Origin: Theionarchaea archaeon
GTDB taxonomy: Archaea; Methanobacteriota_B; Thermococci; Methanofastidiosales; SZ-28-30
Length of the DNA: 64,000 nucleotides
Assembly: GCA_018992685.1 (NCBI GenBank)
Contig: JACVGT010000025.1
Coordinates: forward strand, 27,432 to 91,431
Reading direction: 5' to 3'
The notes under the pieces were generated by a model. That model did not search any database. It was given only the letters and a program-made list of their open reading frames with translations, and was not told the DNA's origin. Below, one piece after another: positions 21,707 through 46,850 of the stretch (positions are counted from its first letter, which is position 1; each line of letters starts with the position of its first letter). The position numbers and the translations under genes are program-made.

Positions 21707-21717
21707 AGCCGAGGGAG
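21707..21717. mobile_element. Candidate att core: copy of the tRNA-Cys 3' end
   Basis: AGCCGAGGGAG identical to 46780-46790; ends 66 bp before the integrase ATG. Confidence 0.7.
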
Positions 21718-21753
21718 CGCTTCTGAAGTTGGTGTTAAGAGCCCACCAAAACA

Positions 21754-21761
21754 TTTATAAA
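21754..21761 (+). promoter_or_regulatory. TATA box of the integrase (probably leaderless transcript)
   Basis: TTTATAAA preceded by CCAAAACA, ending 22 bp before ATG 21783. Confidence 0.6.
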
Positions 21762-21782
21762 GGGCAGGTGGTTCCAGGGTGT

Positions 21783-22994
21783 ATGTTGTATGACTTTGAC
21801 CGCCGCCTTGAAAGCATGAAAAAAAAGATAAGGGGGCTTGAGGAAAAAGAGAATGCTGAGATCATCTTGAAGTTTCTCAATCAGCTCTTTGCAGAAGGGT
21901 TGTCAAAGCCCAGGGTCTTGAAGTATGCCACTCATCTCAAAGTGATATCAGAGAAAATGGGCAAGAACTTCTCAGAGATAGAAAAGGATGATCTAATTTG
22001 GTATTTATCAGAGTTGGAACAATCTGACTATTCTGCTCAAACAAAAAGAGACTACAAGGTGGTTCTCAAACGATTCTTTCCATACATTGGGAAAGGGGAG
22101 CTGGTATCGGATATAAAGACGACTTTAAGAGGAAATAAGAAGACACTGCCAGAGGAGCTACTAACAAAGAAGGATGTGGAAACATTGATTGAGGCTGCAA
22201 AACATCCTCGAGATAAGGCTCTCATCGGCATTCTGTATGAGGGAGGATTGAGGATAGGAGAACTGACAAGTCTCAAGATTAAGAATGTGCAATTTGATGA
22301 ACATGGTGCTGTCTTAAAGGTTCGGGGTAAAACGGGGGAACGACGGGTAAGAGTTGTGTTGTTTGCTTCTTCACTGGCAAAATGGATGGAAATGCATCCT
22401 GAGGGCGACAACAAGGAAGCACCCCTCTGGGTTAATCTGTCGAATAATTACAGGAAAAAGGGAATAACATATGAAGGGTTATACCAGAAGCTCAAGAGGA
22501 TTGCCAAGAAGGCAGGGATAAAGAAGAAGTTGAATTTTCACAATTTCAGGCATTCCAGGGCCACCCACCTGGCTCAGCAATTGACAGAGGCCCAGATGAA
22601 CGTGTACTTTGGGTGGGTCCAGGGAAGTGATATGCCAGCTACATATGTGCACTTGAGTGGGAGAGATGTTGATGACAGGATCCTAGAGATCCATGGAGTG
22701 AAACCCAAAGACAACGACAAGGATGACCAGTTAAAACCTCAGGTGTGCCCCCGGTGCAAGTACATCAATTCACCTGTTAGCCGATATTGTGGAAGGTGTG
22801 GGACAGTCCTTGATGAGAAGGAACGATTGAGAATGGAGATGGAGAGCAGGGGATTAACGAAGGGCTTCCCAGATATAGGTGTTGAGGATGCTGGGGTATT
22901 GGAGGGGATGAAGAAGTTCAGAGATGTGCTGGAATTGCTTGAGAAGCATCCGGATCTGTTCAAGAAAATGAGAACACTGCTGGAAGGGACGTGA
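21783..22994 (+). CDS. Tyrosine integrase/recombinase with C-terminal zinc ribbon (archaeal SNJ2-like)
   Basis: Catalytic R (GGLRIGE), K (RGKTG), HxxR (HNFRH), W (FGW), Y (ATYVH); CPRC...CGRC ribbon; start revised from 21633 to 21783. Confidence 0.92.
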   Translation: MLYDFDRRLESMKKKIRGLEEKENAEIILKFLNQLFAEGLSKPRVLKYATHLKVISEKMGKNFSEIEKDDLIWYLSELEQSDYSAQTKRDYKVVLKRFFPYIGKGELVSDIKTTLRGNKKTLPEELLTKKDVETLIEAAKHPRDKALIGILYEGGLRIGELTSLKIKNVQFDEHGAVLKVRGKTGERRVRVVLFASSLAKWMEMHPEGDNKEAPLWVNLSNNYRKKGITYEGLYQKLKRIAKKAGIKKKLNFHNFRHSRATHLAQQLTEAQMNVYFGWVQGSDMPATYVHLSGRDVDDRILEIHGVKPKDNDKDDQLKPQVCPRCKYINSPVSRYCGRCGTVLDEKERLRMEMESRGLTKGFPDIGVEDAGVLEGMKKFRDVLELLEKHPDLFKKMRTLLEGT

Positions 22995-23072
22995 TATAAT
23001 TTGGGCTATTTCCCCCCATCTTTATTAGTGAGAGGAGAATCATAGAACTAGACCACATATCTTTCGTATTGT

Positions 23073-25355
23073 ATGAGCAGCCTTTATATACTTAGATTTC
23101 AATCTCCAAATATGTTATATAGTGCCATACTCTTCGCGGTGTTTTTATTCTTCGTCTCTATATGCGTTAGATTGTTCATGAAGGTTAAAAAGTGGAAGTT
23201 GATTTTAATTGATATCATTTGTTTCGCAATAATCGCTTCTACTACTGCTTACTACATTTTCCCAAAAGACACAAAGTCTGAGGATATCTACGTTTTCCTG
23301 AATGTATATTTCGATGACCGCGGGGAAAACGACTATGATGAGAATGGAAAGGTACAACAAGTTTTCCTTCTTTATCAAGAAGACCACACAAGGGTCCTGA
23401 TGTATTGCTGTTGCGTTCATCACCCCCAAGACATCGATTTTCGGCTGCTTCTTGAATATTGGAATCCCTATTCACTAAGCATGGATTTCCCGCAGAACGA
23501 AACTCTCAAATTTTTTATAATCCCTTTAGATAATTATAGTGACCGAGACCTTCTTTTTCGATCTGAAGATGATCTAGAAAAGGAATTTCCTGATTTCCAG
23601 ATGACCCGCGATCCTAATAAAGAAACGGGATATTTTAGTATGTCATCTGTTGAAGATAAGATCATGGAAAGAAATTTCTGGATTTGCTTTGATGTTGAGC
23701 CATTAGAATTTGGAACGCAGGCATATGTCCATGTCAAATTTAATAGTTGGTTGCCTGCTGACTTAATTTCACTGTGGGTCGATGAAAAACATGATATAGT
23801 TCTCAGTTTTCCTCCGGGAAAACCATCCACTGACCATGTGAACTTTGATGTCTATGGAAAATTTCAGGAATGTACGATCAAAGTCAGAGAGACTAAACGA
23901 TTCAATGAAGCTTGGTTCGTAGCAGTATTCGCAACTTTGATTACTATGACATCCTATTATCCCAGTATTAATAGAGAGAACGGCCAAACTGGAGAAATGC
24001 ATGAAAGAGGACACCTAAATCCCGAAATATCCCCTTTCTTGATTTCTCTTATCTCTGCAATATTTGTGTTCATTATTTCTTCAAGAGATAATTTTGTCGA
24101 TAATAGCGACAATACTCGATATATGCTTAGTGCTCTTGTGCAAAGCGAAGCAGCAATCATTGCTATTTTTGTGACGATAGGGCTCGTCGGGGTGCAACTG
24201 GCAGGAGTTTATTCTCCTGCATTAGCGAAAGCTTTCAGAACAAGCAATGGGCTCAAAGGACTCGTTTTTCTGTATATTTTTTCGATATCCTTAGGGCTTT
24301 ATATTCTTGGAGCGCATGATTCAACTCCGGCAATCTACATCAGACTTTGTTTTTCTCTTGGAGTTTTCTGTTTTGTAGCTTTTGCTCTTTATGCATTTGA
24401 CGCGATTGAAATGACCGAACCTACCCGATTCATCGAGAAACAGTGCCAAAAGATTAATGGATGTAATATTTTCCAGAAAGATGATCCTATTCAATCCATT
24501 TTCGATATTATAGGAGCGCTGATACGGAAATATGATGAAAGAACGGCAATATACGGATTAGACAAAATGGGAGAAGGAATTGAACTTATGTTGAAAAATG
24601 AGAAGTTCGAGAAAAAGGAGGAAATCGAAGTCTCAAATAAGATCCGCTTTGCATTCAAGGATATCGGTATATTGGCATTTCATCAAGGAAATGAGAATGT
24701 GGTACTCGAGGTTTTAGAACGTCTCGAGAGTATAGGCAATATAGCAATAGAAAATGATCTTGAAATAGTGGCTCGGAAATCTGCAGAATCTCTTGGGTCG
24801 ATTGGAGAGACCATTGTCACCAAGCAGTTCTTAGAAGAGAGAATGGATGACAGCCTAGTAGCCTACAATATCCAGGAAACTGAGAAAATTGCTTTGTCTG
24901 CTTTGGAGAAGGGATACAAAGCAGCAACTGTTGCGACGAGAAAGCTTGGAATAATTGGAGAAATTGCTATCAAGAGAGGATTTGGGAATGTAACACATGA
25001 TATAATCGAGTCATTGGAAGAAATCACGAAGAGTGCTGGAAAAAGGAAAGGGAAGACAAATAAGAGTGGGATAGTGATATCAAATATTGAGCTGGATAGA
25101 ACCATAGGAGGTGCAGTCGAATACATTAATAGTATTGCGAAGAATGCTGTTGAATTAAAATACGAGGATATAAGCGAGCACGCAATTCACTCTCTTGAGG
25201 CAGTAATTGACTGCGTTCTCATGATTGATCATAGCTACACAGCCAAACAAGTTAGAGAACAAATAGAGAAAACAAAGCACGCAGTACAAAAGGAGAAAAA
25301 CAGAAGTTTATCATTAGACTTGGAAGAGATCCTTAGAAAGCTTGATTCTGCTTGA
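23073..25355 (+). CDS. Large multi-pass membrane protein with a DUF2254-like TM core and helical-repeat C-terminus
   Basis: YMLSALVQSEAAIIAIFVTIGLVGVQLA..YSP motif; A/I/E-rich helical repeats. Confidence 0.7.
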   Translation: MSSLYILRFQSPNMLYSAILFAVFLFFVSICVRLFMKVKKWKLILIDIICFAIIASTTAYYIFPKDTKSEDIYVFLNVYFDDRGENDYDENGKVQQVFLLYQEDHTRVLMYCCCVHHPQDIDFRLLLEYWNPYSLSMDFPQNETLKFFIIPLDNYSDRDLLFRSEDDLEKEFPDFQMTRDPNKETGYFSMSSVEDKIMERNFWICFDVEPLEFGTQAYVHVKFNSWLPADLISLWVDEKHDIVLSFPPGKPSTDHVNFDVYGKFQECTIKVRETKRFNEAWFVAVFATLITMTSYYPSINRENGQTGEMHERGHLNPEISPFLISLISAIFVFIISSRDNFVDNSDNTRYMLSALVQSEAAIIAIFVTIGLVGVQLAGVYSPALAKAFRTSNGLKGLVFLYIFSISLGLYILGAHDSTPAIYIRLCFSLGVFCFVAFALYAFDAIEMTEPTRFIEKQCQKINGCNIFQKDDPIQSIFDIIGALIRKYDERTAIYGLDKMGEGIELMLKNEKFEKKEEIEVSNKIRFAFKDIGILAFHQGNENVVLEVLERLESIGNIAIENDLEIVARKSAESLGSIGETIVTKQFLEERMDDSLVAYNIQETEKIALSALEKGYKAATVATRKLGIIGEIAIKRGFGNVTHDIIESLEEITKSAGKRKGKTNKSGIVISNIELDRTIGGAVEYINSIAKNAVELKYEDISEHAIHSLEAVIDCVLMIDHSYTAKQVREQIEKTKHAVQKEKNRSLSLDLEEILRKLDSA

Positions 25356-25549: not shown

Positions 25550-25580
25550 AAAAATAAAAAAGGTGGCAGCATATGCTGCC
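25550..25580 (-). terminator. Hairpin plus T-tract terminator
   Basis: Perfect palindrome GGCAGCATATGCTGCC (25565-25580) followed on the minus strand by a T run; same element at 27557-27587. Confidence 0.7.
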
Positions 25581-25587
25581 TGCAAAA

Positions 25588-25917
25588 TCACTGCTCAGGA
25601 TCTGCCCCTAGTTCCATTATGGCCAGAGCCATACTCCTGACCACAATGTCACCGCTCATTGCGATCTTCTGGAGCCACTCCTTGTTCTCCTCGTCTGCCT
25701 CGTCAGTATCATCACTGCATTCCCACAAAGATTCATGAGCCCGGACATCCTTGACCAGACGCCTGTACAACTGTGCTTCAGAGAGGATTTTCCTGAATTG
25801 TTTCACCAGCCAGATAAAGGTCTGATTCTTATTCCCTGTGCTGAAGTGGCTCATGATCTTGCGGAACTCCTTTTCCGTGTCTTTATCCACCACAAAACTG
25901 AGACGTTGTGTACGCAT
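25588..25917 (-). CDS. Ribbon-helix-helix-like small regulator (intact copy)
   Basis: N-terminal alternating strand RLSFVV, helix KDTEKEFRKIMSHF, turn GNKNQ, helix TFIWLVKQF. Confidence 0.6.
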   Translation of the reverse strand: MRTQRLSFVVDKDTEKEFRKIMSHFSTGNKNQTFIWLVKQFRKILSEAQLYRRLVKDVRAHESLWECSDDTDEADEENKEWLQKIAMSGDIVVRSMALAIMELGADPEQ

Positions 25918-26092
25918 GGTATCCCATCCATAATTGAATATTGCAGCCATTGGTCTCACATGACGGCACCGATGGAGTCAATGAGCATGTGCCAGAAGAC
26001 ACCGTTCTGGACGAAGATGGCAAACTGGACAATGAAGGGAGCATCAGGGTTTAAATTCAATTTCTCAGGATTATTGCGTGATTGTCCTATTG

Positions 26093-26473
26093 TTATGATT
26101 CCCAAAATGGGCAATACTGCCTGCTGATTGGCTTTCTGTGCAGTTTTCGCTTGATTTGTATTTTATATTTTTTCTTTTCAGTCATTCTTTCTTTCATTTG
26201 TCCTAAGGATATTAGAATAATTATAACTCCACCTACTGCAAGCGAACAATAGAAAAAGTTTATATCTGACCCTGGAAGAGGTTTCCTAAAAATGCCGTAA
26301 TAAGAAACTGAAAAACCTGCATAAATTCCACATATACAAAGAAAGAAATAATACATATCCAGAACTATCTCGTTAATTGATATCAATTTTCCCTTTGTAA
26401 AGAGAATTATGAATTTGATAAACACCAATACTAAGAGAAGGATTATTAGAATCAATGTGGGATTATGAGGCAT
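26093..26473 (-). CDS. Hypothetical membrane protein (3 TM), low GC
   Basis: Hydrophobic segments; overlaps the upstream gene. Confidence 0.6.
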   Translation of the reverse strand: MPHNPTLILIILLLVLVFIKFIILFTKGKLISINEIVLDMYYFFLCICGIYAGFSVSYYGIFRKPLPGSDINFFYCSLAVGGVIIILISLGQMKERMTEKKKYKIQIKRKLHRKPISRQYCPFWES

Positions 26474-26894
26474 TTGATTGTTCCCTCCTTTCGATGATGT
26501 GGAAATTGGAATTATTAACCAGATTTGAATATCTGAGTAATATCTTCAAATTTTCTAGTAGGATATTATCTACATACTCTAGTTCAAGCTGTATTCCCAT
26601 CCCAAACTCATTATACCATTTTTTATACTCTAGAAAAGCTCCTTTGATCTTTTCACACGTTCTATCTAGACTCTCTTCATCAAACCTTATCCTGGTTTGC
26701 TCATTCAAACAGTATTCGACATCCTTTATCAAATCTTCAATCAGAGGATACACTCTATTGATATGAGATCCAATCTTCTGCCTCATTTCAATTTTTCTTT
26801 GATGCCTAAATCTGATCTCTTCAACGGAGATTTCGATTATCAGATTTCGTAGAGCTGATAATAGTACTTTTAAGACTTCGATTACAGCATTCAT
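26463..26894 (-). CDS. Hypothetical helical protein, low GC
   Basis: ATGA overlap with the upstream ORF; RBS-like AGGTGG. Confidence 0.6.
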   Translation of the reverse strand: MNAVIEVLKVLLSALRNLIIEISVEEIRFRHQRKIEMRQKIGSHINRVYPLIEDLIKDVEYCLNEQTRIRFDEESLDRTCEKIKGAFLEYKKWYNEFGMGIQLELEYVDNILLENLKILLRYSNLVNNSNFHIIERREQSNAS

Positions 26895-27142
26895 TTCAGA
26901 CCACCTAATGCCTTTCTCTCTATTAGGAAATTGAGAACGCGAGAATAATCTCTGGGGAGTTTCATTTTAGAATATCCTATGAGATGATAATCTATTGAAA
27001 TTTCCCGAGTTTTGAAGGTTCTTGTCTTGCTTTCTATTAGAAATCTTATGATTGACAGTATATCCCCTTCATCATTATTATCGTCCTCCCTCTTCATCAA
27101 ATATGTTCTCTTCAGAGGTTTTGCATTAAATCCCGGATCCAT
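26891..27142 (-). CDS. Small hypothetical protein
   Basis: 83-aa ORF, first of three coupled genes. Confidence 0.5.
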   Translation of the reverse strand: MDPGFNAKPLKRTYLMKREDDNNDEGDILSIIRFLIESKTRTFKTREISIDYHLIGYSKMKLPRDYSRVLNFLIERKALGGLK

Positions 27143-27556
27143 GAGTAGAAGTTGGTTCAGCTGCTTTTAAGCTTTTGCCGAAAGGATTATAGACTGTCAA
27201 AAATAGATATAAAAGCATATAATGGTATATAATTGCGTAGAGTGTTACATAACTAATTAGACAAATATGAGTAACATGAGTTTTTCCTAGTCCTGGTTCA
27301 CTTCCACATTAATTGACATATAGCATTTTAAATTCCTTGAATGGGAAGAAGATTTAAGAATATGGCATACAGAAACTCCATTGCTCCAGTACACGAACCT
27401 GAGAATTTAGTATTACTTCAATTGGTTATTCACCTTCCAAGTAATCCAAAAAATGGAACACCAAGCATTTTCATCATGAAATCGTGTTTATCAAGTTCGA
27501 ATATTCGAGAATTTTATTGAACATACCATGTTCTCAAAAGAAGATATTCTAAATCA

Positions 27557-28091
27557 AAAAATAAAAAAGGTGGCAGCATATGCTGCCTGCAAAATCACTG
27601 CTCAGGATCTGCCCCTAGTTCCATTATGGCCAGAGCCATACTCCTGACCACAATGTCACCGCTCATTGCGATCTTCTGGAGCCACTCCTTGTTCTCCTCG
27701 TATCCTGGTCATCTGACTCTGCCTCTTCAGTGTCATCAGTGCATTCCCACAGAGCTTCATGGGCCTGGACATCCTTGACCAGACGCCTGTACAACTGTGC
27801 TTCAGAGAGGATTCTCCTGAATTGTTTTACCAGCCAGATAAAGGTCTGATTCTTGTTTCCTGTGCTGAAGTGGCTCATGATCTTGCGGAACTCCTTTTCC
27901 GTGTCTTTGTCCACCACAAAACTGAGACGTTGTGTGCGCATGGTATCCCATCCATGAGTTGTATGTTGTAATCATTGGTCTCACATGACGGCACCGATGG
28001 AGTCAATGAGCATGTGCCAGAAGACACCGTTCTGGACGAAGATTGCGAACTGGACAATGAAAGGCGCATCAGGGTTCAAGTTCAATTTCTC
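27557..28091. repeat. ~535-bp direct repeat C, copy 2
   Basis: Aligns with 25550-26066. Confidence 0.93.
27595..27941 (-). pseudogene. Frameshifted copy of the RHH-like gene
   Basis: 17 extra nt (ATCCTGGTCATCTGACT, about 27702-27718) relative to copy 1 give a premature stop at 27663; the original stop is still present at 27595. Confidence 0.75.
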
Positions 28092-28403
28092 GTAGACCAC
28101 GGGGATAATGACGAAAGCAACGACAGCAGAGAGGATCACCTCAGGGATGCTGACGGCTGGGTTTAGAGTTCCAGATCTGAACTGCATGATGGCTGAACTG
28201 AGTAGGACACCCACAAAGGCTCCAAGATACATGAGGACCTGGCGCAGCACAGTGAGGTAAGGGAGATCATCAAGTTCAGGTGCATCCAGTTCTTCAGTCT
28301 CCTGGTATGCAGCTGCCATGGTGCCATTATGCAGAGAGCCACCGTTGTTATTCTCCCATGCTTTTCTCACCCGTTCATTGAGATCAAAGTACTGCTTCAT
28401 CAT
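27981..28403 (-). CDS. Hypothetical 3-TM membrane protein
   Basis: Three hydrophobic segments; ATGA overlap with the upstream gene. Confidence 0.75.
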   Translation of the reverse strand: MMKQYFDLNERVRKAWENNNGGSLHNGTMAAAYQETEELDAPELDDLPYLTVLRQVLMYLGAFVGVLLSSAIMQFRSGTLNPAVSIPEVILSAVVAFVIIPVVYEKLNLNPDAPFIVQFAIFVQNGVFWHMLIDSIGAVM

Positions 28404-29218: not shown

Positions 29219-29238
29219 GTACTATCACCCCAGAAGAA

Positions 29239-29895
29239 TTAAGGGACTAGCCCCGAATCGCGCACCAGTCCGGAGGCATCTCTGACAAGGCCTGAAGCAT
29301 CTCGTACGAGACCAGAAGCCTGGCCTGCCAGTAGTATAACGTCTTCAGTCTCTGCGTAGGCTACCTGGTTCTCCAGTTGTCCCGCTCTCTTTTCGATCTC
29401 ATCTGCTCTCTTGATTTGCGATTCAATTTTCTCTGTAGAATTACCTCTCACCAGTCCTGAGGCATTGCGTACCAGACTGGATGCATCCCTCACGAGACCG
29501 GAGGCATCTTTTACCAGACTGGATACGTCCTGTACCAATGCTGAGGGATCTGCAGTCTCTGCCAACGTAATAACACGTCTCACATACCGTGAAAATTGGA
29601 CAGTCCCTTTTGATAGATTCTGGACAGTCTCAGTCAATCTCCGGTAAGAACAAGCAGTCTCATCATCTGTGACCAGTCTGGATGAATCTCTCACGAGACC
29701 TGAGGCATCCCTCACTAATCCAGAGGCATCCCGAACCAATCCAGAGGCATTCCTTACAAGCCCAGATGCGGAAGGTCTTACCTTTCCGCAGTCCAGAGCG
29801 GCAGTACTTTCACGTACTGCTTCATCGAGCTCCAGGATAGCATTATCTGTATCCTGGACAGTCCTAATTTCAATTACGACTATATCCGTTCGCAT
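29239..29895 (-). CDS. ASGLVRD heptad-repeat protein of unknown function
   Basis: Three blocks of (ASGLVR[D/N])n separated by non-repetitive helices; upstream TATA TTTATATA at 29983-29990. Confidence 0.85.
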   Translation of the reverse strand: MRTDIVVIEIRTVQDTDNAILELDEAVRESTAALDCGKVRPSASGLVRNASGLVRDASGLVRDASGLVRDSSRLVTDDETACSYRRLTETVQNLSKGTVQFSRYVRRVITLAETADPSALVQDVSSLVKDASGLVRDASSLVRNASGLVRGNSTEKIESQIKRADEIEKRAGQLENQVAYAETEDVILLAGQASGLVRDASGLVRDASGLVRDSGLVP

Positions 29896-41000: not shown

Positions 41001-41858
41001 CAACCAGTAGCTGAATCTGAATACGATCCCTTTGGTGCTACAGACACTGAAGAAGGATACCTCTTCAATGGAAAGGAAAAAGACTCCACAGGCCTGTATT
41101 ACTATGGGGCCCGTTACTACAGCCCGGAAACTGGGCGGTTCATAACCAGGGACCCTCTTCCAGGAAAGATCGAGTCTCCCCAGACTTCAAACCAGTATGT
41201 CTACTGCTTGAATAATCCTTTGAAGTATGTAGATCCCAGAGGTATGGACTGTGAATATGTCATCCTCCCTGATGGCACAATTTCCTACGATTTGGCCGAA
41301 CTCTACAACAAGATGCAGAAAGCACTAGAAACAATGAGCGAAGAGGACTGGGCGCAACTCGACGAATACCTTGCTCCTGGTACTGATGCAGCAACCAAAA
41401 TGGAAGCTGTTAAGGTCATTCTGGAAAAAGCTGGCATAAACTTTAAAGATGAGACAACATCATTAGAGGTAGAGGTTGGTACTGTGAATTTTACGATCGA
41501 ATTCAGTGATCTGCCTTTTCCCGAATGGGGAGAAACCAGAAGGAAAAAGGGATTTTCTACTGGAGAAATTCTGCTTTCCAATCACATCCACAGCGGCGGT
41601 GACCTATTTCTCGTTTTAGGTCATGAGATGACTCATGCATATATGTTGAGCTATCACGAAAATAGCATCAATTCGGTGCAATGCCAATTCGGAGACGAAG
41701 GTAGGAAGGCATACATGGAGCTCATCAGCTATCAATGGGAAGTTGGAATCTTGAACCAAGTACCTCATGTTTCACTTATGCAGAGAGAAACCATCTTGGA
41801 GCAATTTGACAGATATAAACTCCTGTGGCCTCTCATTCAGACCTATGGTGCATCATAG
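35064..41858 (+). CDS. Secreted RHS/YD-repeat protein with PKD domain, Asp-box propeller insertion and HExxH C-terminal domain
   Basis: Signal peptide MRDKILILGLSAALL; PKD (WDFEGDG...HVYDNPGIY); YD repeats; core YYHTDHVGS, GLYYYGARYYSPETGRFITRDP, NNPLKYVDPRG; HEMTH at 41622. Confidence 0.92.
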   Translation: MRDKILILGLSAALLMSLFCYVQEIAAGYDGLSERIPVVGDDVAGSLSNVPPVVEVVPDVSSGKAPLRVQFEGDVYDEDGEITSLEWDFEGDGAFEVTSDLKSIERPQKLQAAREGLQKEHVYDNPGIYHAVVRVTDDKEESTTASVTIQVYSDRPWLDITPSNKDGFLYQAQAGYEAFFGENVGKEIKFELNNAYITYRMVNQSFGAVNTAKGEPEGNRIWYRNVFPGVDIRYTVHEDLLLEEFVVYQPVGITVIEQEFVTHGVDYKMEEDGSIGFYNGEDLVFSIPKPVMYEFNNPERKCYGLHYEVVEKGNLYILRKVIDNLEWLKSAKYPVVIDSSTQGEIADPWEQQGLTPYGQYFQNMNEYVDPLTGHLNIRQTDYSLSGRGLDLSISRVYSTVVAYKEDEEESGSGEYVPIATYKEAPTDLGYGWSLDFPWLEFNEDDQEPGHYLHLPKGVQIKTNFVDGVWIDETHHFVMYINGDYSYTKYRDDGVREDYDSQGRLTSITDLNGNVITFSYGQYGISQIADTVGRTVTFNYSSDTLMSITDGVRTISYSYSGGKLTAVTDPIGRVTTYEYMSENSFLITGVHYPSGGFSSYEYGTVIPEAGKIAPYKSSETEDGETQYYFYKVDSPDTVTWTSPKDLAGVTGAAGRPYVVQRDDGSFVMYFKEKYVWTETVWKCGGGDCWEEIITHTEYWIKRSTSTDQQHWSTPQNVLQVKSTTGNPIVIEKQDGTLIMYYMDHYQWTEENCYWDNRLHEWVCETITHNEFYIYRRSSSDGITWGSPVKVQQTTVGVRNIAAIQKQDGTFLLVYMDKVGSAYYMRQKTSADGLSWGTASNVVQVDSGTGGPALLQADSGTVYLAYRKGNSSLYVTSNSGSEWSTPVQTTGVASGDPAFLQTETEIVLIYKGTDNYCYRISSSDGANWSSPSQIAPNKIVSDPASVQRTDRSYRVTAQYISASALDLVKITEFSYTGSGYLSESTDVLIRDSQTLKSSMHFEYDSKGRTTERISKDENGTQTEKTVFTYNNGDKVIRQDVYAGTSTGISYSVLIGYDNGGNVVYTRNPEGAEHFYSYANTNSQNQFIDSKGNPVQLFSNQFYTNSVPSHCHTLLAGEAFINNGKVTECYYKYDNNGNMIETKTLYPTRDYEVFSGTFDENGQTTFDIDLTGLTITDAVLVISSIAVPTQETLYETHSEVGKGWLDTGTWSGKYFMADYFRCYSTSPPDCFDGSTKIGPFEHYPGTPNYTGYTTWVEENTQYVKTSYTAIVNEYPEMVEYSLNDSSWNEITDNLGSGTTSTLIPESSFVQGANTLQLRESNAFSTRFDWVLYIDQGATPQEYMTSLAYDSNGNVISATDAKGNTTLFSYDSHYMYLTSLTDTLSRTISAAYNFTTGWMISVTDAQGNVTSYEYDELGRVTKKILPDLAELEVSYDDQNSTVTIYDELDHFQTKYYDGLGRLIRDERYLSPSSALTEIYTYNYMGKMESRTDSGGQTYSYQYDSLGRPTRITNPDSSFVHFDYNYTTNTVNSYDENQHRKQYHYDWTGLLLWVKEYTGPESYYFTEYKYDSLGHLTSLTDARGNTTSYEYGSLFGATQVTYPDSTNETYLYDAVGNVVQKTDANGTTGFVYDNGYQLSSVTYTDGSVVTFEYDVNGSRTLLTDSEGSTWYTYDNRNRLLSETRSIDGQEYTVSYSYDLASRLVSTTYPDQTVITYEYDAANRLVTIPGYAHYTYNADSLVESVGYANDVIASFQYDSRNRPISIQAQSAGSDVLSMSYQYDPVGNITEMDYGRRLPDQQWNESQETFEYDWLDRVVSAQGDYGLLSYSYDPVGNRVSQNGVAYTYNEMNELISTSDGILFTYDGNGNTLSKADRTNTWIYSYDSRNQLKEVQKDQHMTAQYWYDGDNRRVKKTEWKDDLQEYQTTIYIYSGTNVIYEKNVTTDGEADYICSSKGLIAKKVGDYVDYYHTDHVGSTRLVTNEEGQPVAESEYDPFGATDTEEGYLFNGKEKDSTGLYYYGARYYSPETGRFITRDPLPGKIESPQTSNQYVYCLNNPLKYVDPRGMDCEYVILPDGTISYDLAELYNKMQKALETMSEEDWAQLDEYLAPGTDAATKMEAVKVILEKAGINFKDETTSLEVEVGTVNFTIEFSDLPFPEWGETRRKKGFSTGEILLSNHIHSGGDLFLVLGHEMTHAYMLSYHENSINSVQCQFGDEGRKAYMELISYQWEVGILNQVPHVSLMQRETILEQFDRYKLLWPLIQTYGAS

Positions 41859-41879
41859 GATCTTCAAGGAAGTGACAAA

Positions 41880-43280
41880 ATGAAATTGGCATTGATAATA
41901 ATCGTCCTTTTGAGTGTATGCTCAACTGAGACATGCGAAAACTGGCCCATGTACCAGCATGATCCCCAGCATTCGGGGTACAGCTTGTGTCCAGCTCCCG
42001 ATACTGGGTATTGGCTCTGGACCTATGATGCTGGAGCTCCCATTATTGCCTCACCTATTGTTGTTGGAAACATGATATACTTCCCGGCTTTGGGAAAGAT
42101 GGTTGCATTGAAAGCAGATTCTGGTGAAGTGCTTTGGACGCAGAAAGTTCCAGTGGCAGGTTCAACACCTGCAGCATCTGGAGAAACGCTTGTCGTAGGA
42201 ACGACATGGGGTTTCATGGCTTTGGATACTAAAACTGGTGAGACTAGATGGGAACAGGAGATCGCGAGGCTGTACGCCAGTGATGAGTTTTTTGAATCAT
42301 CACCTTTGATACTGAAAGACAAAGTATACGTAGCGACAGGGACAAATGCTATGATCCTGTATCCAGGACGAGGTGTTGGCGAGCTGCCTCTGAGAAACGT
42401 TATGTGCATGGATATCAAGACAGGGCAAATAGTCTGGAAAAAGGATGTGCATGCAGAAGTCAGTTCCTCGCCCGCCTTCTCTCATGATACCCTCTACGTC
42501 AGCAGTGAATCTTGCGTTGCACTTGATTTAGATGGTAACATAAAGTGGGAATATAACCATGGGTATTCCCTGAGCAGCTCTCCTGTTATCATTGATGACA
42601 GTTTAGTGCTGGCTGCCCAGAATGCCTTTTCGGGACGCAGGATCATCAGAATTCAGCGAGGTAACGTATTGTGGTCAAGAGAGCCAAAAGATATGATAAC
42701 GACCCCTCCTGCTGCATATGGAAAGAAGATTGTTTTCATTACTATTAAGGGGGATGTATTAGCCCTGGATCTTGAGACTGGTGATCCTATCTGGACCACT
42801 CACTTAGGGGGGGAACTTCTCATAGACGATACGTCTCTTGCATGTTCCTCTTCACCCGTTATTGCTGATGGGAAAGTCTACGTCGGTACTCTAAGTGGAG
42901 TATTCACCTGCTTGGATCTGGAAAATGGAACAATACTATGGCAATACCAGACAGAAGGAGCTATCGTATCACCTGCTGCCATAGCGAACGAAAGAATCTA
43001 TGTAGGTTCTACAGATGGTACATTGTACTGCTTTGGTATCGACCCTGAAACCTATTTTCAAAAGGCACAACGCTACGAAGAGAAAGGAGACACAGAAAGG
43101 GCCCGAGAATTCTACAGGAAAGCCAGAGACTACTACCAGGAACAAGGTGATATAACCATGATAAAAAGATGTGACGAAATCCTGAGGGAAAGAGACTACC
43201 TCTGGGGTGCAGCTCTGGCAGCAGTCGTTATAGTGATCTTGTTGCTTCTGTTCTACTATAGAAAACGGCGAACAAGTTAG
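41880..43280 (+). CDS. PQQ-like beta-propeller with signal peptide, short helical domain and C-terminal TM anchor
   Basis: WPMYQHDPQHSG, ALDxxTGxxxW repeats, SSPVIADGKVYVG, TM followed by RKRR. Confidence 0.88.
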   Translation: MKLALIIIVLLSVCSTETCENWPMYQHDPQHSGYSLCPAPDTGYWLWTYDAGAPIIASPIVVGNMIYFPALGKMVALKADSGEVLWTQKVPVAGSTPAASGETLVVGTTWGFMALDTKTGETRWEQEIARLYASDEFFESSPLILKDKVYVATGTNAMILYPGRGVGELPLRNVMCMDIKTGQIVWKKDVHAEVSSSPAFSHDTLYVSSESCVALDLDGNIKWEYNHGYSLSSSPVIIDDSLVLAAQNAFSGRRIIRIQRGNVLWSREPKDMITTPPAAYGKKIVFITIKGDVLALDLETGDPIWTTHLGGELLIDDTSLACSSSPVIADGKVYVGTLSGVFTCLDLENGTILWQYQTEGAIVSPAAIANERIYVGSTDGTLYCFGIDPETYFQKAQRYEEKGDTERAREFYRKARDYYQEQGDITMIKRCDEILRERDYLWGAALAAVVIVILLLLFYYRKRRTS

Positions 43281-43548: not shown

Positions 43549-43772
43549 AGACATCATGCTGGCCAGCAGGTGGCTCGAAAATTCGCAGTGGCACCGTGCC
43601 AGAAATTGGCCTTACAAGATGGCACCGTGCCACTCATTGAGTGATTTCACATCAAAATGAGTCCAAATTCCAGAAAAATGCAGGGATCGGAATGGCACAG
43701 TGCCAAAATCTACACAATACCAATGGCACTGTGCCAATCAGAATTTTGTGGATAACTGGATTCAAAAGTTTT
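43549..43772. repeat. Palindrome-array repeat B, copy 2 (four perfect TGGCAC-N-GTGCCA boxes at 43589, 43620, 43693, 43724)
   Basis: Read directly from the sequence; colinear with 21416-21607. Confidence 0.92.
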
Positions 43773-43868
43773 CGCCAATGCAGACAAGGAGGGTAGCAGA
43801 CTACATGAATACATCAGCATCTTAAATTCCTGTACCGATGAAATAGTCAGAAATAAGAGTATAGGTCA

Positions 43869-45863
43869 TCATGCAATCTCCATCCCTATTGCCGTTTTTT
43901 CCTGATTCCGTAAAACTGCATCCATCTCTCTCCTGATGATATAGGCTGCATCCACCACTGATTCCGAAACTTCACCAATTCTTCTTACCATTTCCATACA
44001 AGAAACCATATTCTGAGATACATCCAGTTGGTTCTGATGTAGCAACTTCTGGGTATCTTCAATGTGCGTGACACTCTTGCTGAGTCTCTCTTCAATTTTT
44101 TCAATTTCATTTCCCAGTTCCTTCCTTAGACTTTCAATCCTGGATGGCACTTCTCTCAGTGCATTCCTGTCAATTCTACCACTTATCACATCATCAACAA
44201 AAGCCTCTAAATTTGCAGTTAAAATATGGGCTTCAGTTCCCTCAACTTCGAAATGCAGTTTCTTGGATTTATCTATACCTATGACATATTCCATGACCTC
44301 TCCTGTTGAATCTATAGTTTTCACCGTGCTCCTGAAGTAGAGAAGGCCTCTTTGAATGACTTTCCGTGCAAAGGGGTCATCTTCTACTGCTTCGTGCTGC
44401 ATTCTGACCTCCGCAGGTTCTGCTAAATCAAGGACTATACCGTAATCTCGTAATCTCACAATGATCTCATTGGTGAAATCAATTATTTTGGTGTGGAAAT
44501 CAATTTCTGATGTGAAGATAAAAGGGTCCTTGGGCAGTACGTTGATGACTTCTCGTGATGGGTCCTTGGACTTGAAGATATAGGCTTCAGTGAAGTGTTT
44601 GTGAATACTCTTCTTACCAAAGATCCACCCTGTGTTTTTCAGTCTGCTGTGATTGCAACGTAGTAACTTGAATTGTATGAAGAGTCTGTGGGCATTCTTC
44701 TGCTGCCAAGTGATGTAATCATCAAAGGTTTCGAGAGGGTTACCGGGATCTGGATCTGCGGGGATATCTTGTTGAGCTGTCTGAGTCTGTGGGACCTCTC
44801 TGTCTGCAGGCTGTACCTCATGGGATGGCTGAACTTCTGATGAATCTGGCTCATCGGTTGGCAGAATTTTTGAGGATGAACTATCAATTTTTGAGCCATT
44901 TTTTACCGAATCAAAAAACCCTGTTAACCCCTTGATGGCAAGCTCTGTAGGTGTATAGACATATTGATTTCCCACCTTATTGATGGTAATTAGTTTATCT
45001 TTTTCCAATTTTTCAGTATATTTTTTGACCATGTACCTGGAAATCTTATTTCTCCTGGCTAATTCCCTTTCTGAGAACTGTTCATACTTATTCTCCTTGG
45101 ACAGTATATCCATCAAAATACTCTTTTCCACAGGGTCCAGGTTACCAGATTCTCTTCTCCCCCTACCCGGTTGGCTGAAATTCTTCAAAAGTTTTTCAAA
45201 AGGTTTACCATCATTATCCAAAAAAATTTTGGAGTTTCTATCCACATTATCTGAAAGAGTATAGTGTCCCCAGGCCATCTTGATGACTCTCTCATCTCTC
45301 ATCAAGTTTCTCATATGGTAGTGAGCTGTGGAAGGGTCCACTCCAGCAAAGGAAGCAATGTCCTTGAGACGAGATATGTTATTAGTCAAAGCCTGCAGAA
45401 CCAATGCCCTGGTAGTCAGGCCTTGGATTTTTTCGGGGGTACTGGCTGCAGTATTGGGAATAGCACTGGCAACCTGGATGGAATCAGTAAGTGTATCAGA
45501 TCCAGCTGGGATCTCATTTTCCTGGCCATCAACCTGCTCAGCATAGACCTCATCAGCTCGCTTAAACAGATCTTCACAAGACTTACCAGATTCTTCCTCT
45601 TCACTAACCTCATCGGACAGGTGTTGGCCTTTACACACCTTCCATTCCCATTTCTCCCAGAATTTTCGTGATATTCTTTCTCTACTCTCTTCAAATTTCT
45701 TACAGTCCTCTCTCTTCATCAATTTCCTGACATCATTATCTTTCCAGCAACCGTCAAAGAATATTCTCTTACTGGGACCAGAGTATTCTTCAAAAATAAC
45801 AGCATGCCTGCACTGCAGGCATGTGTGTAAACATTTCGGCAGTCGATCAATCACCACATTCAC
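43869..45863 (-). CDS. Multi-domain DNA-binding protein: Cys-rich N-terminus, two winged-HTH domains, C-terminal coiled coil
   Basis: LKDIASFAGVDPSTAHYHMRNL and SERELARRNKISRYMVKKYTEKLEKDKLI; CLHTCLQCRH. Confidence 0.75.
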   Translation of the reverse strand: MNVVIDRLPKCLHTCLQCRHAVIFEEYSGPSKRIFFDGCWKDNDVRKLMKREDCKKFEESRERISRKFWEKWEWKVCKGQHLSDEVSEEEESGKSCEDLFKRADEVYAEQVDGQENEIPAGSDTLTDSIQVASAIPNTAASTPEKIQGLTTRALVLQALTNNISRLKDIASFAGVDPSTAHYHMRNLMRDERVIKMAWGHYTLSDNVDRNSKIFLDNDGKPFEKLLKNFSQPGRGRRESGNLDPVEKSILMDILSKENKYEQFSERELARRNKISRYMVKKYTEKLEKDKLITINKVGNQYVYTPTELAIKGLTGFFDSVKNGSKIDSSSSKILPTDEPDSSEVQPSHEVQPADREVPQTQTAQQDIPADPDPGNPLETFDDYITWQQKNAHRLFIQFKLLRCNHSRLKNTGWIFGKKSIHKHFTEAYIFKSKDPSREVINVLPKDPFIFTSEIDFHTKIIDFTNEIIVRLRDYGIVLDLAEPAEVRMQHEAVEDDPFARKVIQRGLLYFRSTVKTIDSTGEVMEYVIGIDKSKKLHFEVEGTEAHILTANLEAFVDDVISGRIDRNALREVPSRIESLRKELGNEIEKIEERLSKSVTHIEDTQKLLHQNQLDVSQNMVSCMEMVRRIGEVSESVVDAAYIIRREMDAVLRNQEKTAIGMEIA

Positions 45864-45878
45864 ATTCCTGGTTGTCTT

Positions 45879-46190
45879 CTATGAATTCATCATGTCCTTG
45901 AGTCTGCAGTAGTTGTCTTCAAGGTCCAGAGTTTCCATCACCACGGAAACAGAAGCCACACTCGTTCCCAGTATCAAGGCAATCCCCACGTTGGTTACTC
46001 CCATGTTGTGGAGTATACTCACCCGGTCAGGATCTACGTCAGAACGTAAGTGATAGTTATTCACCATCTCCAGCTTCTCAAGTCGGTAACTAACAGCAGG
46101 CTGGGTGACACCCAATCTCATTGCGATTTCTTTGTTAGTCAGTCCTTCACGATAGAGCTCCAGAAGCTCTCCATCTGAAAACTTATTCAT
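45879..46190 (-). CDS. Small tandem-HTH protein
   Basis: LELYREGLTNKEIAMRLGVTQPAVSYRL and LHNMGVTNVGIALILGTS; RBS GGAGGAGG supports start 46190. Confidence 0.8.
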   Translation of the reverse strand: MNKFSDGELLELYREGLTNKEIAMRLGVTQPAVSYRLEKLEMVNNYHLRSDVDPDRVSILHNMGVTNVGIALILGTSVASVSVVMETLDLEDNYCRLKDMMNS

Positions 46191-46779
46191 CCTTTCGACC
46201 TCCTCCCCTTGCAGGATCATACGGAGTGATCCCTTCGCCTTTGACAGGAACAGAGTTAGTCCGTTCCACAAGGGGTATGTATAGACTATGTCCAGGTTAT
46301 GCGGGACCGCCTTTCTTGAGAAAGGCAATAAATCCCACATAACCAAAAAAAAAGAATAAGAAGGGGTATATAAAGTTAATTAATACAAAATATGATATTA
46401 TAATATTTTTTGAGGCAAATTATTTCAGATTTTGACACCAGTTCAAGCTACTTTATAATTTTAAATGATAAGAAGGAGAAAAGATTATTTTTTCCGTGAT
46501 GTATCTGATGATTGAGTCAAAAGAATATCAGAATTTAAAATAATGAACAGATCATGAAATGAAAGCAGATTAATCTTATCAAGACAATATGATTTCTCTT
46601 AATCAAAAAATCGAAGTGAATTTCATACTTTATTTTCCTGTAAAAAAATATGATATTATCATATTTTATAACATTTTTTAGCTTGTAAAGCTTTCTGTAA
46701 GCGATGAAAGGTTTCTGCAAAAGCTCCACGGGATTAAAATGCATAAAAAGAGAAAAGGGCTTAAAAGCCAGGGTCTGAG

Positions 46780-46850
46780 AGCCGAGGGAGGGATTCGAAC
46801 CCCCATAAACCGGTCTGCAGCCGGTCACATAGCCGCTCTGACACCTCGGC
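46780..46850 (-). tRNA. tRNA-Cys (GCA)
   Basis: Acceptor GCCGAGG/CCTCGGC, anticodon arm ACCGG-CTGCAGA-CCGGT, T loop GGTTCGAATCC. Confidence 0.95.

What the first reader, a model, noticed from the sequence alone, without database searches (positions are those of the whole stretch)
21707..46790. Candidate new family of tRNA-Cys-integrated archaeal element (~25 kb)
Seen: AGCCGAGGGAG occurs at the exact 3' end of tRNA-Cys (46780-46790) and again 66 bp before an intact tyrosine integrase (21707-21717). The orientation is what Campbell integration into the tRNA 3' end predicts. The tRNA-proximal end has an AT-rich stretch, a tandem-HTH gene, a 664-aa double-wHTH gene and a palindrome array. Known: archaeal SNJ2-like integrases with C-terminal zinc ribbons target tRNA genes. 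Inference: this is a discrete element whose backbone has no capsid, packaging ATPase, primase, helicase, relaxase or VirB4 that I can recognise, yet it carries offence (RHS), defence (nuclease pair) and a surface operon.
Basis: partly seen in the sequence, partly recalled or inferred. Interest (0 to 1): 0.85.

Follow-up and report, generated by a model that had tools for sequence, protein, structure and literature searches.

The report
Integrase-bounded island at archaeal tRNA-Cys
A 25-kb block of foreign-looking DNA sits behind a tRNA-Cys gene of an uncultured sediment archaeon, bounded by an 11-base repeat and carrying its own integrase, which makes it an ordinary kind of integrated mobile element from a family not yet described.

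Summary
AGCCGAGGGAG is the last 11 nt of tRNA-Cys (46780-46790) and recurs at 21707-21717, 65 nt before the ATG of an intact tyrosine integrase.

The repeat alone is weak evidence: short tRNA-tail words recur downstream of 19 of 35 tRNAs in this genome. Three other results support it.
- A second copy of the element lies in the same genome, split over two contigs. It has the same integrase, surface module, wHTH pair and tRNA-proximal arm. At the aligned position it carries a different 11-mer that matches its own tRNA at 10 of 11 bases.
- The DNA left of 21707 is homologous to DNA that directly follows other tRNA genes.
- Both arm types were not found in three related genomes.

I read it as a cryptic integrated element inserted by Campbell-type recombination into the tRNA 3' end, probably in tandem with an older remnant (15951-21706). 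Cargo is variable (RHS toxin, membrane protein, unknown pair).

The integrase belongs to a widespread archaeal family. Its nearest viral relatives are Archaeoglobi pleomorphic viruses, and no other gene is shared with them.

No empty site or circular junction was seen, so current mobility is unproven. The "nuclease pair" is not supported. This is a new member of a known kind, of moderate interest.

The parts
21416..21706 (-). Type-2 arm. It lies just outside the element, on the far side of the distal core. It holds palindromes GGCACNGTGCC at 21456 and 21560 and a T-rich 50 nt next to the core. It is probably the tRNA-proximal end of an older, decayed element.
   Evidence: It is 76% identical to C1:301928-302208, which abuts the 3' end of tRNA-Thr(ggt). 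A contig of run X3 follows it to 21700 and then runs into the reverse complement of a tRNA-Asp-like 3' end, by my reading of the 30 loose letters. A partial copy lies inside the element at 43549-43772.
21707..21717 (-). Distal att core (attR): the displaced copy of the last 11 nt of tRNA-Cys.
   Evidence: The paralogue on C8 carries a different 11-mer at the aligned position, matching its own tRNA at 10 of 11 bases.
21718..21782 (+). P arm with the integrase promoter region (TTTATAAA box about 30 nt before the ATG).
   Evidence: Conserved with the region upstream of the C8 integrase. Calling it a promoter is my inference from the sequence.
21783..22994 (+). Tyrosine integrase, 403 aa, with a C-terminal CPRC...CGRC zinc ribbon.
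   Evidence: PF00589 scores 84.8 bits against a cut-off of 27.1. The best NCBIfam model is archaeal XerA at 144.8 bits, below its cut-off of 220. R157, K183, H253, R256, W278 and Y288 are invariant in the 4-sequence alignment.
23073..25355 (+). Cargo: a 760-aa membrane protein (DUF2254-like transmembrane region plus a helical-repeat C-terminus).
   Evidence: No Pfam hit of its own. It has 638 relatives; 8 of the 9 scanned carry PF10011 DUF2254. The C8 paralogue holds an OLD-type nuclease in this slot. Metagenome contigs join the integrase end at 22973 or 22995 to 25586 or 27558.
25550..28091 (.). Internal duplication: 25550-26066 is repeated at 27557-28091 (92-100% identity). The copies bracket three small ORFs (26093-27142) of unknown function.
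   Evidence: C8 has a single copy.
27981..29895 (-). Conserved surface/membrane module: a 140-aa membrane protein, a 272-aa secreted protein with an S-layer-like domain, and a 218-aa protein with ASGLVRD repeats.
   Evidence: PF05124 scores 30.1 bits for the 272-aa protein. All three are 84-89% identical to C8:109-2031. The 272-aa protein also has four chromosomal paralogues at about 51%.
30394..33142 (-). Two-gene cargo module (545 aa and 372 aa), function unknown.
   Evidence: The only family hit is a weak PF09821 match (30.7 bits). PHROGs, PADLOC and NCBIfam gave nothing. The 545-aa protein has 5 homologues in 5.8 billion proteins. A paralogous pair lies at C1:159353-161903 (27-33% identity). 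The Atlas gives an MJECL33-like lead for the 372-aa protein. The AlphaFold model has pLDDT 39.7.
33451..33933 (-). DDE transposase fragment (IS remnant).
   Evidence: PF13737 at 57.9 bits. A related copy lies on C15.
34986..41858 (+). Cargo: a 2290-aa RHS polymorphic-toxin-type protein (PKD, BNR, RHS repeats, RHS core, then a variable C-terminus of about 270 aa).
   Evidence: PF05593 at 195.8 bits and PF03527 at 29 bits, residues 1988-2022. Paralogues lie on 9 other contigs, several beside tRNA-linked integrases.
41880..43280 (+). Cargo: a 466-aa PQQ-like beta-propeller protein.
   Evidence: PF13360 at 143.6 bits.
43549..43772 (.). Palindrome array: four copies of TGGCACNGTGCCA. It is a copy of part of the type-2 arm.
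   Evidence: Of 11 such palindromes in the genome, 6 are in the window and 3 at C1:301954-302058. The array is absent beside the C1 paralogue of the 664-aa gene.
43869..45863 (-). Backbone gene: a 664-aa protein with an N-terminal Cys-rich domain, two winged-helix domains, an unassigned alpha/beta domain and a long C-terminal helix.
   Evidence: It is 73% identical to C1:8910-10730. The family has 93 proteins, named only in Methanofastidiosia/Theionarchaea MAGs and in metagenomes.
45879..46346 (-). Backbone gene: a small HTH protein. The conserved part is about 103 aa (45879-46190).
   Evidence: HTH_24 at 27 bits. It is 85% identical to C1:10746-11057 over residues 53-155. A metagenome contig has the same gene pair in the same order (L055).
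46347..46779 (-). Type-1 arm (P' arm). It is AT-rich, with AAAGCTTT-type repeats and a TATA-like box facing the HTH/wHTH operon.
   Evidence: It is 75-90% identical over about 130-330 nt to the DNA right after 6 other tRNA genes, so 7 of 35 tRNAs carry it. No covariation supports an RNA structure. Rfam found nothing here.
46780..46790 (-). Proximal att core (attL), which is the 3' end of the intact tRNA-Cys.
46780..46850 (-). tRNA-Cys(gca), the integration target.
   Evidence: The tRNA-Cys of G003 has the same 3' end and is followed by housekeeping genes.

Best explanation
Window 21707-46790 is an integrated mobile element of about 25.1 kb of the 'cryptic integrated element' kind. The host is an uncultured archaeon of the Methanofastidiosia/Theionarchaea group; that assignment is inferred only from the names on the closest homologues.

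Proposed mechanism. A circular form carrying attP recombined with the last 11 nt of tRNA-Cys. attP is the type-1 arm, the 11-nt core and the integrase-side arm. The reaction was catalysed by the element's own XerA-like tyrosine integrase. The tRNA stays intact. Its displaced 3' end now lies 65 nt upstream of the integrase gene, which has its own promoter in the P arm.

Conserved backbone: the integrase, a three-gene surface/membrane module, and a divergent operon (small HTH protein plus 664-aa tandem winged-helix protein) driven from the tRNA-proximal arm.

Swappable cargo: a DUF2254-like membrane protein, an unknown two-gene module, an IS fragment, an RHS toxin and a PQQ propeller.

The element probably entered a site already occupied by an older element. 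The remnant of that element (15951-21706, ending in a type-2 arm) now lies beyond the distal core.

Shown: the repeat, the intact integrase, the paralogous copy at another tRNA, the arm homologies, no match in relatives, and cargo variation in metagenome contigs. Inferred: recombination at the core, the circular intermediate, promoter positions, the regulatory or maintenance role of the wHTH pair, and tandem order.
For: 1. Core and integrase geometry.

2. A paralogous element in the same genome. C8:109-6716 holds the three surface-module genes (84-89% aa identity) and an integrase (68% aa). C1:8910-11734 holds the wHTH gene (73%), the HTH gene (85%) and the type-1 arm (84% nt over 2563 nt), abutting a tRNA. 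In the nucleotide alignment the C8 copy has a different 11-mer in the same columns as the window's core. Among 35 tRNAs, that 11-mer's best match (10 of 11) is the C1 tRNA that carries the paralogous arm. It sits in the same register: 3 nt of T-stem plus the acceptor strand.

3. DNA left of the distal core (21430-21710) is homologous to DNA starting 4 nt after tRNA-Thr(ggt) on C1. In run X3 it is homologous to DNA next to a tRNA-Asp-like end. So 21707-21717 sits where a tRNA end belongs.

4. Type-1 and type-2 arms gave no match in 3 of 3 related genomes (G001-G003). Synteny with G001 stops at about 15950 and resumes at 49061.

5. G+C is 41.6% against 46.7% for the genome.

6. In G002 a tRNA-Cys is followed after about 200 nt by a truncated homologue of the 664-aa gene.

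7. Contigs of other runs join the integrase end to 25586 or 27558, and the C8 copy carries an OLD nuclease in that slot. This is the modular cargo exchange typical of integrative elements.

8. Precedent: archaeal att cores of 8-14 bp at the acceptor end of tRNAs (passages of PMC8371274, PMC6563490 and PMC5861418).
Against: - No empty site, circular junction or loose end at 21717/21718 was seen. The only read-level test used short Logan contigs on 14000-33999, listed 24 of 140 loose ends, and could not span both ends.
- No syntenic unoccupied tRNA-Cys locus exists in the relatives. The G001 and G002 contigs end there, and G003 has the tRNA in another neighbourhood.
- The 11-mer alone is weak: similar repeats occur for 19 of 35 tRNAs.
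- The C8 core matches two other tRNAs at 9 of 11, so the 10-of-11 match discriminates only modestly.
- Contiguity of the C1 and C8 halves is inferred; no contig-end overlap was found.
- About 50 nt beyond the distal core is similar in the window and in C8. This needs either two independent earlier type-2 insertions or a conserved requirement in attB.
- Signs of decay are present (IS fragment, internal duplication), and none of 139 CRISPR spacers hits the element.
Confidence: 0.8

Rival explanations
1. The element is real but is now a fixed genomic island. It integrated once and has since decayed and been remodelled, and it no longer excises or transfers. It behaves as a strain-specific island for RHS and surface genes.
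For: An IS fragment and a 0.5-kb internal duplication are present. Five further tRNAs carry solo type-1 arms with no integrase or core repeat nearby, which shows that members of this family do decay in place. No excision product was seen. No replication or transfer gene was recognised.
Against: The integrase is full length with all catalytic residues, the zinc ribbon and its own promoter region. Both cores are identical over 11 nt. Close integrase relatives (60-87% identity) and variants of the cargo slot occur in several sediment metagenomes, which suggests recent activity of the family.
Confidence: 0.35
2. The 11-mer at 21707 is a chance match. The real unit is one larger island from the synteny break at about 15950 to the tRNA (about 31 kb), or an unbounded variable region.
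For: Synteny with G001 ends at 15950, not at 21707. G+C is low from 15951 onward (39.9%). Chance 10-11-mers are common.
Against: No further copy of the core with 2 or fewer mismatches lies in 12000-21700. The paralogue changes its 11-mer together with its tRNA at the aligned position. The DNA left of 21707 is an arm of the kind that elsewhere abuts tRNA ends. A contig of run X5 joins the conserved PQQ gene directly to 18866, which shows the left segment has its own history.
Confidence: 0.07
3. It is a provirus of a pleolipovirus-like enveloped virus. The small membrane protein and the secreted S-layer-like protein would be virion proteins.
For: The nearest integrases in the phage collection belong to Geoglobus acetivorans pleomorphic virus 1 (40.7% over 94% of the query) and pleomorphic virus ThalV2 (39.6%). 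They share the zinc-ribbon tail, and their integrase gene also lies at the genome end. Pleolipoviruses lack capsid and terminase genes (passages of PMC10919331).
Against: tblastn of all 26 window proteins against both virus genomes found only the integrase at E below 0.01. There was no VP3-like, VP4-like or Rep match. The 272-aa protein is half the length of the VP4-like proteins and has four chromosomal paralogues. Of the 10 element ORFs scanned with PHROGs (the surface-module genes were not among them), only the integrase, the 664-aa and the HTH protein matched, and none as a structural protein. Neither the 664-aa family nor the integrase was found in IMG/VR.
Confidence: 0.06

Closest known systems
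Cryptic integrated elements (CIE) of archaea, as defined for Thaumarchaeota (Krupovic et al. 2019, PMC6563490; passages read)
   Same: A tyrosine integrase plus short flanking direct repeats, often at a tRNA 3' end. No recognisable virus, plasmid or conjugation hallmark genes. Size in the tens of kb. Mixed cargo including surface and defence-type genes. Short att sites (8 bp upward).
   Different: A different host lineage. This family has its own recurrent backbone (the HTH plus 664-aa wHTH operon, a surface module, and a conserved tRNA-proximal arm), whereas the paper states that CIE have no signature genes. RHS cargo.
Integrases of Archaeoglobi pleomorphic viruses (GacPV1 BK065156.1, ThalV2 BK065158.1; PMC10919331, passages read)
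   Same: About 40% identity over more than 90% of the protein, the same C-terminal Cys4 zinc ribbon and tail, and an integrase gene at the end of the element next to att.
   Different: No other gene is shared: no VP3, VP4 or rolling-circle Rep. The element is 25 kb against 13-16 kb. The one att given in that paper's text is 27 nt (for AvPV1); here it is 11 nt.
SNJ2-type integration (Natrinema pleolipovirus SNJ2; PMC5861418 and review PMC8371274, passages read)
   Same: A classical (not self-splitting) integrase. A short core at the acceptor end of a tRNA (13-14 bp). Conserved P and P' arms among related elements. int lies next to attP.
   Different: Identity to the SNJ2 integrase was not measured. 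SNJ2 is not among the 25 listed of 31 phage-collection hits. No Orf2/Orf3-like helper operon follows int. The review says the SNJ2 family is restricted to Halobacteria.
Tandem arrays and decayed remnants of integrative elements at tRNA genes (general knowledge, recalled)
   Same: A second element inserting into the regenerated tRNA end pushes the older one outward. This leaves core copies between elements, and solo arms at other tRNAs.
   Different: Here the older partner is reduced to 5.8 kb or less, without an integrase or a detectable third core copy.

Membership tests
Tyrosine recombinase / classical archaeal integrase (XerA-SNJ2-pNOB8 supergroup) | Phage_integrase catalytic domain above the Pfam threshold | tested here: met
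   PF00589 scores 84.8 bits against a cut-off of 27.1.
Tyrosine recombinase / classical archaeal integrase (XerA-SNJ2-pNOB8 supergroup) | Catalytic R-K-H-R-(H/W)-Y residues present | tested here: met
   R157, K183, H253, R256, W278 and Y288 are invariant in the 4-sequence alignment. The assignment of these residues to the motif is recalled, not computed.
Tyrosine recombinase / classical archaeal integrase (XerA-SNJ2-pNOB8 supergroup) | N-terminal SAM-like core-binding domain | tested here: inconclusive
   PF02899 scores 22.0 bits against a cut-off of 22.3. Many close homologues carry PF02899 or PF13495.
Tyrosine recombinase / classical archaeal integrase (XerA-SNJ2-pNOB8 supergroup) | att site outside the int ORF (not the SSV-type 'suicidal' arrangement) | tested here: met
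   The core lies 65 nt upstream of the ATG at 21783.
Chromosomal XerA (dif resolvase) | Reaches the NCBIfam equivalog cut-off | tested here: not met
   NF040815 scores 144.8 bits against a cut-off of 220. The protein also has an extra zinc-ribbon tail and two copies in the genome.
SNJ2-type integrase family | At least 30% identity over at least 60% of the length to the SNJ2 integrase (criterion quoted in PMC8371274) | not tested
   No SNJ2 sequence was compared. It is not among the 25 listed hits, and 6 hits were not listed.
SNJ2-type integrase family | int-orf2-orf3 helper operon | tested here: not met
   int is followed by a 760-aa membrane protein here and by an OLD nuclease in the paralogue. 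The review notes that many SNJ2-like elements lack the helpers, so this is weak.
Integrated mobile element (iMGE) / cryptic integrated element | Integrase plus flanking direct repeats, one of them in a tRNA 3' end | tested here: met
Integrated mobile element (iMGE) / cryptic integrated element | Presence/absence polymorphism at exactly the att boundaries | tested here: inconclusive
   The region gave no colinear match in G001-G003, but no syntenic empty site exists. No junction-spanning contig was seen.
Integrated mobile element (iMGE) / cryptic integrated element | No virus, plasmid or conjugation hallmark genes | tested here: met
   Pfam on 30 window ORFs, and PHROGs, PADLOC and NCBIfam on the same 10 of them, found none. 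This covers only what HMM libraries can see.
Pleolipoviridae provirus | VP4-like fusogen and VP3-like membrane protein | tested here: not met
   tblastn against GacPV1 and ThalV2 found only the integrase. The PHROGs scan (10 of the element's ORFs; the 140-, 272- and 218-aa surface-module genes were not scanned) gave no structural match. A fold-level test was not done.
Integrative conjugative element | VirB4/TraG-type ATPase, relaxase | tested here: not met
   None.
RHS/YD polymorphic toxin (cargo gene 34986-41858) | RHS repeats plus the RHS core domain preceding a variable C-terminus | tested here: met
   PF05593 scores 195.8 bits. PF03527 scores 29 bits against a cut-off of 27.9, at residues 1988-2022 of 2290.

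The most novel reading that the evidence does not exclude
The HTH/664-aa wHTH operon, its tRNA-proximal arm and the zinc-ribbon integrase may define a lineage-restricted family of autonomous plasmid- or virus-like elements of Methanofastidiosia/Theionarchaea. Their replication and transfer machinery would be entirely unrecognisable; the 664-aa protein would be a new kind of initiator or maintenance factor. Their integrases would have re-targeted at least seven different tRNA species in one genome while keeping the same P' arm. The elements might also preferentially stack onto earlier type-2 elements, because part of attB recognition would lie in the resident arm.
Probability: 0.2. Interest if true: 0.6.

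Novelty: new member of a known kind. Interest (0 to 1): 0.35.

Why it matters
No mobile element of the Theionarchaea/Methanofastidiosia group turned up in two full-text searches. The terms were 'Theionarchaea'+'integrase', and a five-term search on provirus, MGE and integrated element. The one paper that looked found no pT26-2 plasmids there (PMC6972569, passages read).

This locus, with its sister copy, gives precise att sites. It also gives a conserved backbone and arm sequences that could be used to mine such elements in sediment archaea. It shows RHS toxins and defence genes travelling as cargo on them.

It does not overturn anything. tRNA-targeting tyrosine-integrase elements with short cores and no hallmark genes are a known and common class in archaea.

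Tried and rejected
- Structured RNA in the type-1 arm. RNAalifold on 7 copies gave a covariation term of -0.26, with 3 of 37 pairs showing a double change. Rfam found only the two tRNAs in 15000-49000. Rejected.
- The 664-aa protein as a recognisable replication protein. The AlphaFold model has pLDDT 53.9, with only the two winged helices confident. Foldseek returned only wHTH proteins such as ScpB, MarR and AspA, with TM-scores (normalised to the query) of 0.13 or less. The PDB profile search had a best E-value of 0.0024, to a designed helical protein. The Atlas gave no usable hit. The PHROGs DnaD-like hit had E 3.9e-4 on one wHTH only. No assignment.
- The palindrome array as the cognate site of the 664-aa protein. 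The C1 paralogue has no such array, so the link is not supported.
- The 545-aa protein as a nuclease. The model has pLDDT 39.7 and was not sent to fold search.
- Search for the family in IMG/VR with the 664-aa protein, with its 36-sequence alignment and with the integrase: none found.
- Metagenome scan with the 664-aa protein: 3 short contigs only.
- Class and phylum searches: 2 of 133 genomes hold the protein. The phylum call repeated the class set.
- Contig-end overlap between C8 or C1 and any other contig: none.
- CRISPR. 139 spacers came from four arrays. None hits the element. Two hit C8:67037-67759 partially.
- Read laying on 14000-33999 with X1, X3, X4 and X5. It gave no cover-based conclusion and showed no empty site or circle. 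Parts without cover in X1 (19336-21336, 23338-25338) prove nothing.
- Supplementary files of the papers were not opened. The att tables of PMC6563490 and PMC10919331 might bear on the comparison of core lengths.

Full report
**Observation.**
ARAGORN places tRNA-Cys(gca) at 46779-46850 and tRNA-Val at 46930-47002, both on the minus strand. Rfam places the tRNA-Cys at 46780-46850. AGCCGAGGGAG occurs twice in the window, at 21707-21717 and 46780-46790, in the same orientation. None of 100 shuffles gave two matches. It occurs three times in the 3.03-Mb, 45-contig genome.

The second copy is exactly the last 11 nt of the tRNA. The first lies 65 nt before the ATG (21783) of a 403-aa tyrosine integrase.

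On its own it is not compelling. When I asked the same question of every tRNA, words of 10-15 nt from the tRNA tail recurred within 80 kb downstream for 19 of 35. For 5 of 35 the word reached the tRNA end.

**What makes the boundary credible.**
A BLAST of 15901-49000 against the genome and tblastn of 26 window proteins revealed a sister element.
- Contig C8 carries, in the same order, the three surface-module genes (84-89% aa identity) and an integrase (68% aa).
- Contig C1 carries homologues of the 664-aa protein (73%) and the HTH protein (85% over its conserved 103 aa), plus 84%-identical DNA over 2563 nt. That DNA runs up to a tRNA at C1:11646-11734. ARAGORN calls it Ser(gga), but its 3' end resembles the tRNA-Arg on C6, so it may be an intron-bearing tRNA.

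In the nucleotide alignment of the two integrase upstream regions, the columns that hold the window's 11-mer hold a different 11-mer in C8. Among all 35 tRNAs, the best match of that 11-mer (10 of 11) is the C1 tRNA. Two other tRNAs reach 9 of 11. The register is the same in both elements: three T-stem bases, the 7-nt acceptor strand, then the discriminator. The core therefore changes with the target tRNA while the flanking element DNA stays homologous, as expected of an att site. Contiguity of the C1 and C8 halves is inferred; no contig-end overlap was found.

**The arms.**
The 130-330 nt directly after the tRNA-Cys (the type-1 arm) is 75-90% identical to the DNA directly after six other tRNA genes. 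These are the C1 tRNA, Glu(ttc), Asp(gtc), Thr(tgt), Thr(cgt) and a second Cys, so 7 of 35 tRNAs carry it.

Homology begins 8-10 nt after each tRNA end, and the tRNAs themselves differ. Only the window and C1/C8 have the genes. The other five arms are solo, with no integrase and no repeat of 10 nt or more from the tRNA end within 40 kb (two have 9-nt repeats). I take them to be decayed relics.

The arm has AAAGCTTT-type repeats and a TATA-like box facing the HTH/wHTH operon. There is no support for an RNA structure.

**Left of the distal core.**
The DNA at 21416-21706 is a different arm (type 2). It is 76% identical to the DNA that starts 4 nt after tRNA-Thr(ggt) on C1. A contig of run X3 follows it to 21700 and then continues into what I read as the reverse complement of a tRNA-Asp-like 3' end. 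The 11-mer at 21707 thus sits exactly where a tRNA end sits at other copies of this arm.

This is what a tandem array predicts. An earlier type-2 element occupied tRNA-Cys, and the present element then recombined with the regenerated tRNA end. The first 50 nt or so of type-2 sequence is also present beyond the C8 core. I cannot fully explain that: it means either two independent earlier insertions, or attB recognition that includes this sequence.

**Relatives and metagenomes.**
- Colinearity with the congeneric G001 runs to window 15949 and resumes at 49061. Both G001 contigs end or diverge there, so there is no clean empty site.
- Neither arm type gave a match in G001, G002 or G003. These are 84-91% complete, so this does not prove absence.
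- G003 has a tRNA-Cys with the same 3' end, followed by housekeeping genes, but in a different neighbourhood.
- In G002 another tRNA-Cys is followed after about 200 nt by a 180-aa ORF homologous to the N-terminal Cys-rich domain of the 664-aa protein.
- G+C is 41.6% for the element and 39.9% for 15951-21706, against 46.7% for the genome.
- Six runs from four studies hold half or more of the sampled words of 46000-48000.
- Logan contigs of four runs were laid on 14000-33999. They showed cargo-slot variants: the integrase end at 22973 or 22995 joined to 25586 or 27558. They also showed a variant lacking 15445-18865. They gave no evidence for or against excision.

**Integrase.**
It has the PF00589 domain. 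Archaeal XerA is the best NCBIfam model, but the score is below the cut-off. The catalytic residues are all present, and the tail is CPRC...CGRC.

In the phage collection the best hits are Geoglobus acetivorans pleomorphic virus 1 (40.7% over 94% of the query) and pleomorphic virus ThalV2 (39.6%). Both share the zinc-ribbon tail. No other protein of the element matches those genomes.

The family is large. There are 2767 hits, including 60-87% relatives in sediment metagenomes and MAGs named Theionarchaea and Methanomicrobia. Relatives in a Methanosarcina MAG lie immediately after tRNA-Thr and tRNA-Ser, in the opposite core orientation.

**Backbone and cargo.**
- The 664-aa protein has a Cys-rich N-terminus, two confident winged helices, an unassigned domain and a long helix.
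- Its family has 93 proteins. The only organism names on them are Methanofastidiosia and Theionarchaea MAGs, often with several copies per MAG.
- Among 133 genomes of the class it occurs in 2.
- The 760-aa protein is a DUF2254-type membrane protein. It is replaced by an OLD-family nuclease in the sister element, which also carries CHAT-STAND, SNase and lamin-tail-domain (LTD) genes.
- The RHS gene is complete, with repeats and core domain. It has paralogues next to other tRNA-linked integrases.
- The 545-aa and 372-aa pair remains unknown.

**Mechanism and standing.**
The best reading is Campbell-type integration of a circular element by its own classical tyrosine integrase at an 11-nt core in the acceptor end of tRNA-Cys. 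The element has a small conserved backbone and exchangeable cargo, and is stacked on an older remnant. Short cores of 8-14 bp at this position are documented for archaeal elements (PMC8371274, PMC6563490, PMC5861418; passages read).

The class to which it belongs, cryptic integrated elements, is established. The specific backbone family appears undescribed: two full-text searches found no paper on mobile elements of this lineage.

Still open are whether it can still move and how it replicates or transfers.

Noticed in passing
window 15419-15576 and 18840-18997: A 158-nt direct repeat (98% identity). The right copy duplicates part of the 5' region of the PQQ-propeller gene 14041-15870. The repeats bracket 3.4 kb with a beta-lactamase-fold gene and two unknown ORFs. 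A contig of run X5 joins 15444 to 18866, so a population variant lacks the 3421 nt.
   Followed up: partly
G000 contigs C3:119074-, C11:29750-, C6:-47297, C5:32121-, C23:27372- (loci L060-L064): Solo type-1 arms lie directly after five further tRNA genes: Glu, Asp, Thr(tgt), Thr(cgt) and a second Cys. None has an integrase or core repeat nearby. The C6 copy also keeps pieces homologous to window 46335-46409 and 43386-43565, as if the HTH/wHTH genes had been deleted.
   Followed up: partly
G000 C7:29121-, C9:130919-, C16:2223-, C19:79162-: Four tRNA-Ser genes are followed by another conserved sequence class. On C7 and C19 this is followed by integrase-like genes (about 28% identity to the window's). 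RHS genes lie a few kb further on at C7 and C19. C16 has a 12-nt repeat of the tRNA end 1.9 kb downstream. This is a second family of tRNA-linked islands.
   Followed up: no
G000 C1:301928-302208 (L059): A type-2 arm with three TGGCACNGTGCCA palindromes directly follows tRNA-Thr(ggt). Of 11 such palindromes in the genome, 9 lie in type-2-like sequence.
   Followed up: partly
window 28007-30007: The S-layer-like and ASGLVRD-repeat genes have summed contig depths of 600-4000 in runs X3 and X4, against 10-60 for their neighbours. Many related copies from many organisms share this module.
   Followed up: no
G000 C7:142372-146800, C26:19254-23000, C26:32356-33800, C22:3160-3306: Four CRISPR arrays with 139 spacers and repeats of 37 and 30 nt. 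Two spacers partly match C8:67037-67759 (24 of 36 and 27 of 36 nt), perhaps another mobile element in the genome.
   Followed up: partly
G000 C1:11646-11734: ARAGORN calls this 89-nt tRNA Ser(gga). Its 3' end is close to that of tRNA-Arg(gcg) on C6, and a different tRNA-Ser(gga) exists on C7. It may be an intron-containing tRNA of another identity.
   Followed up: no
L052 (G002:C55), 1351-2112: In a congeneric genome, a tRNA-Cys of the second type is followed after about 200 nt by a truncated (180-aa) homologue of the N-terminal Cys-rich domain of the 664-aa protein.
   Followed up: partly
window 47593-48585: A 330-aa ORF just beyond the two tRNAs has no Pfam family and no DNA match in G001-G003. 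The variable zone may extend past the tRNAs to about 49000.
   Followed up: no
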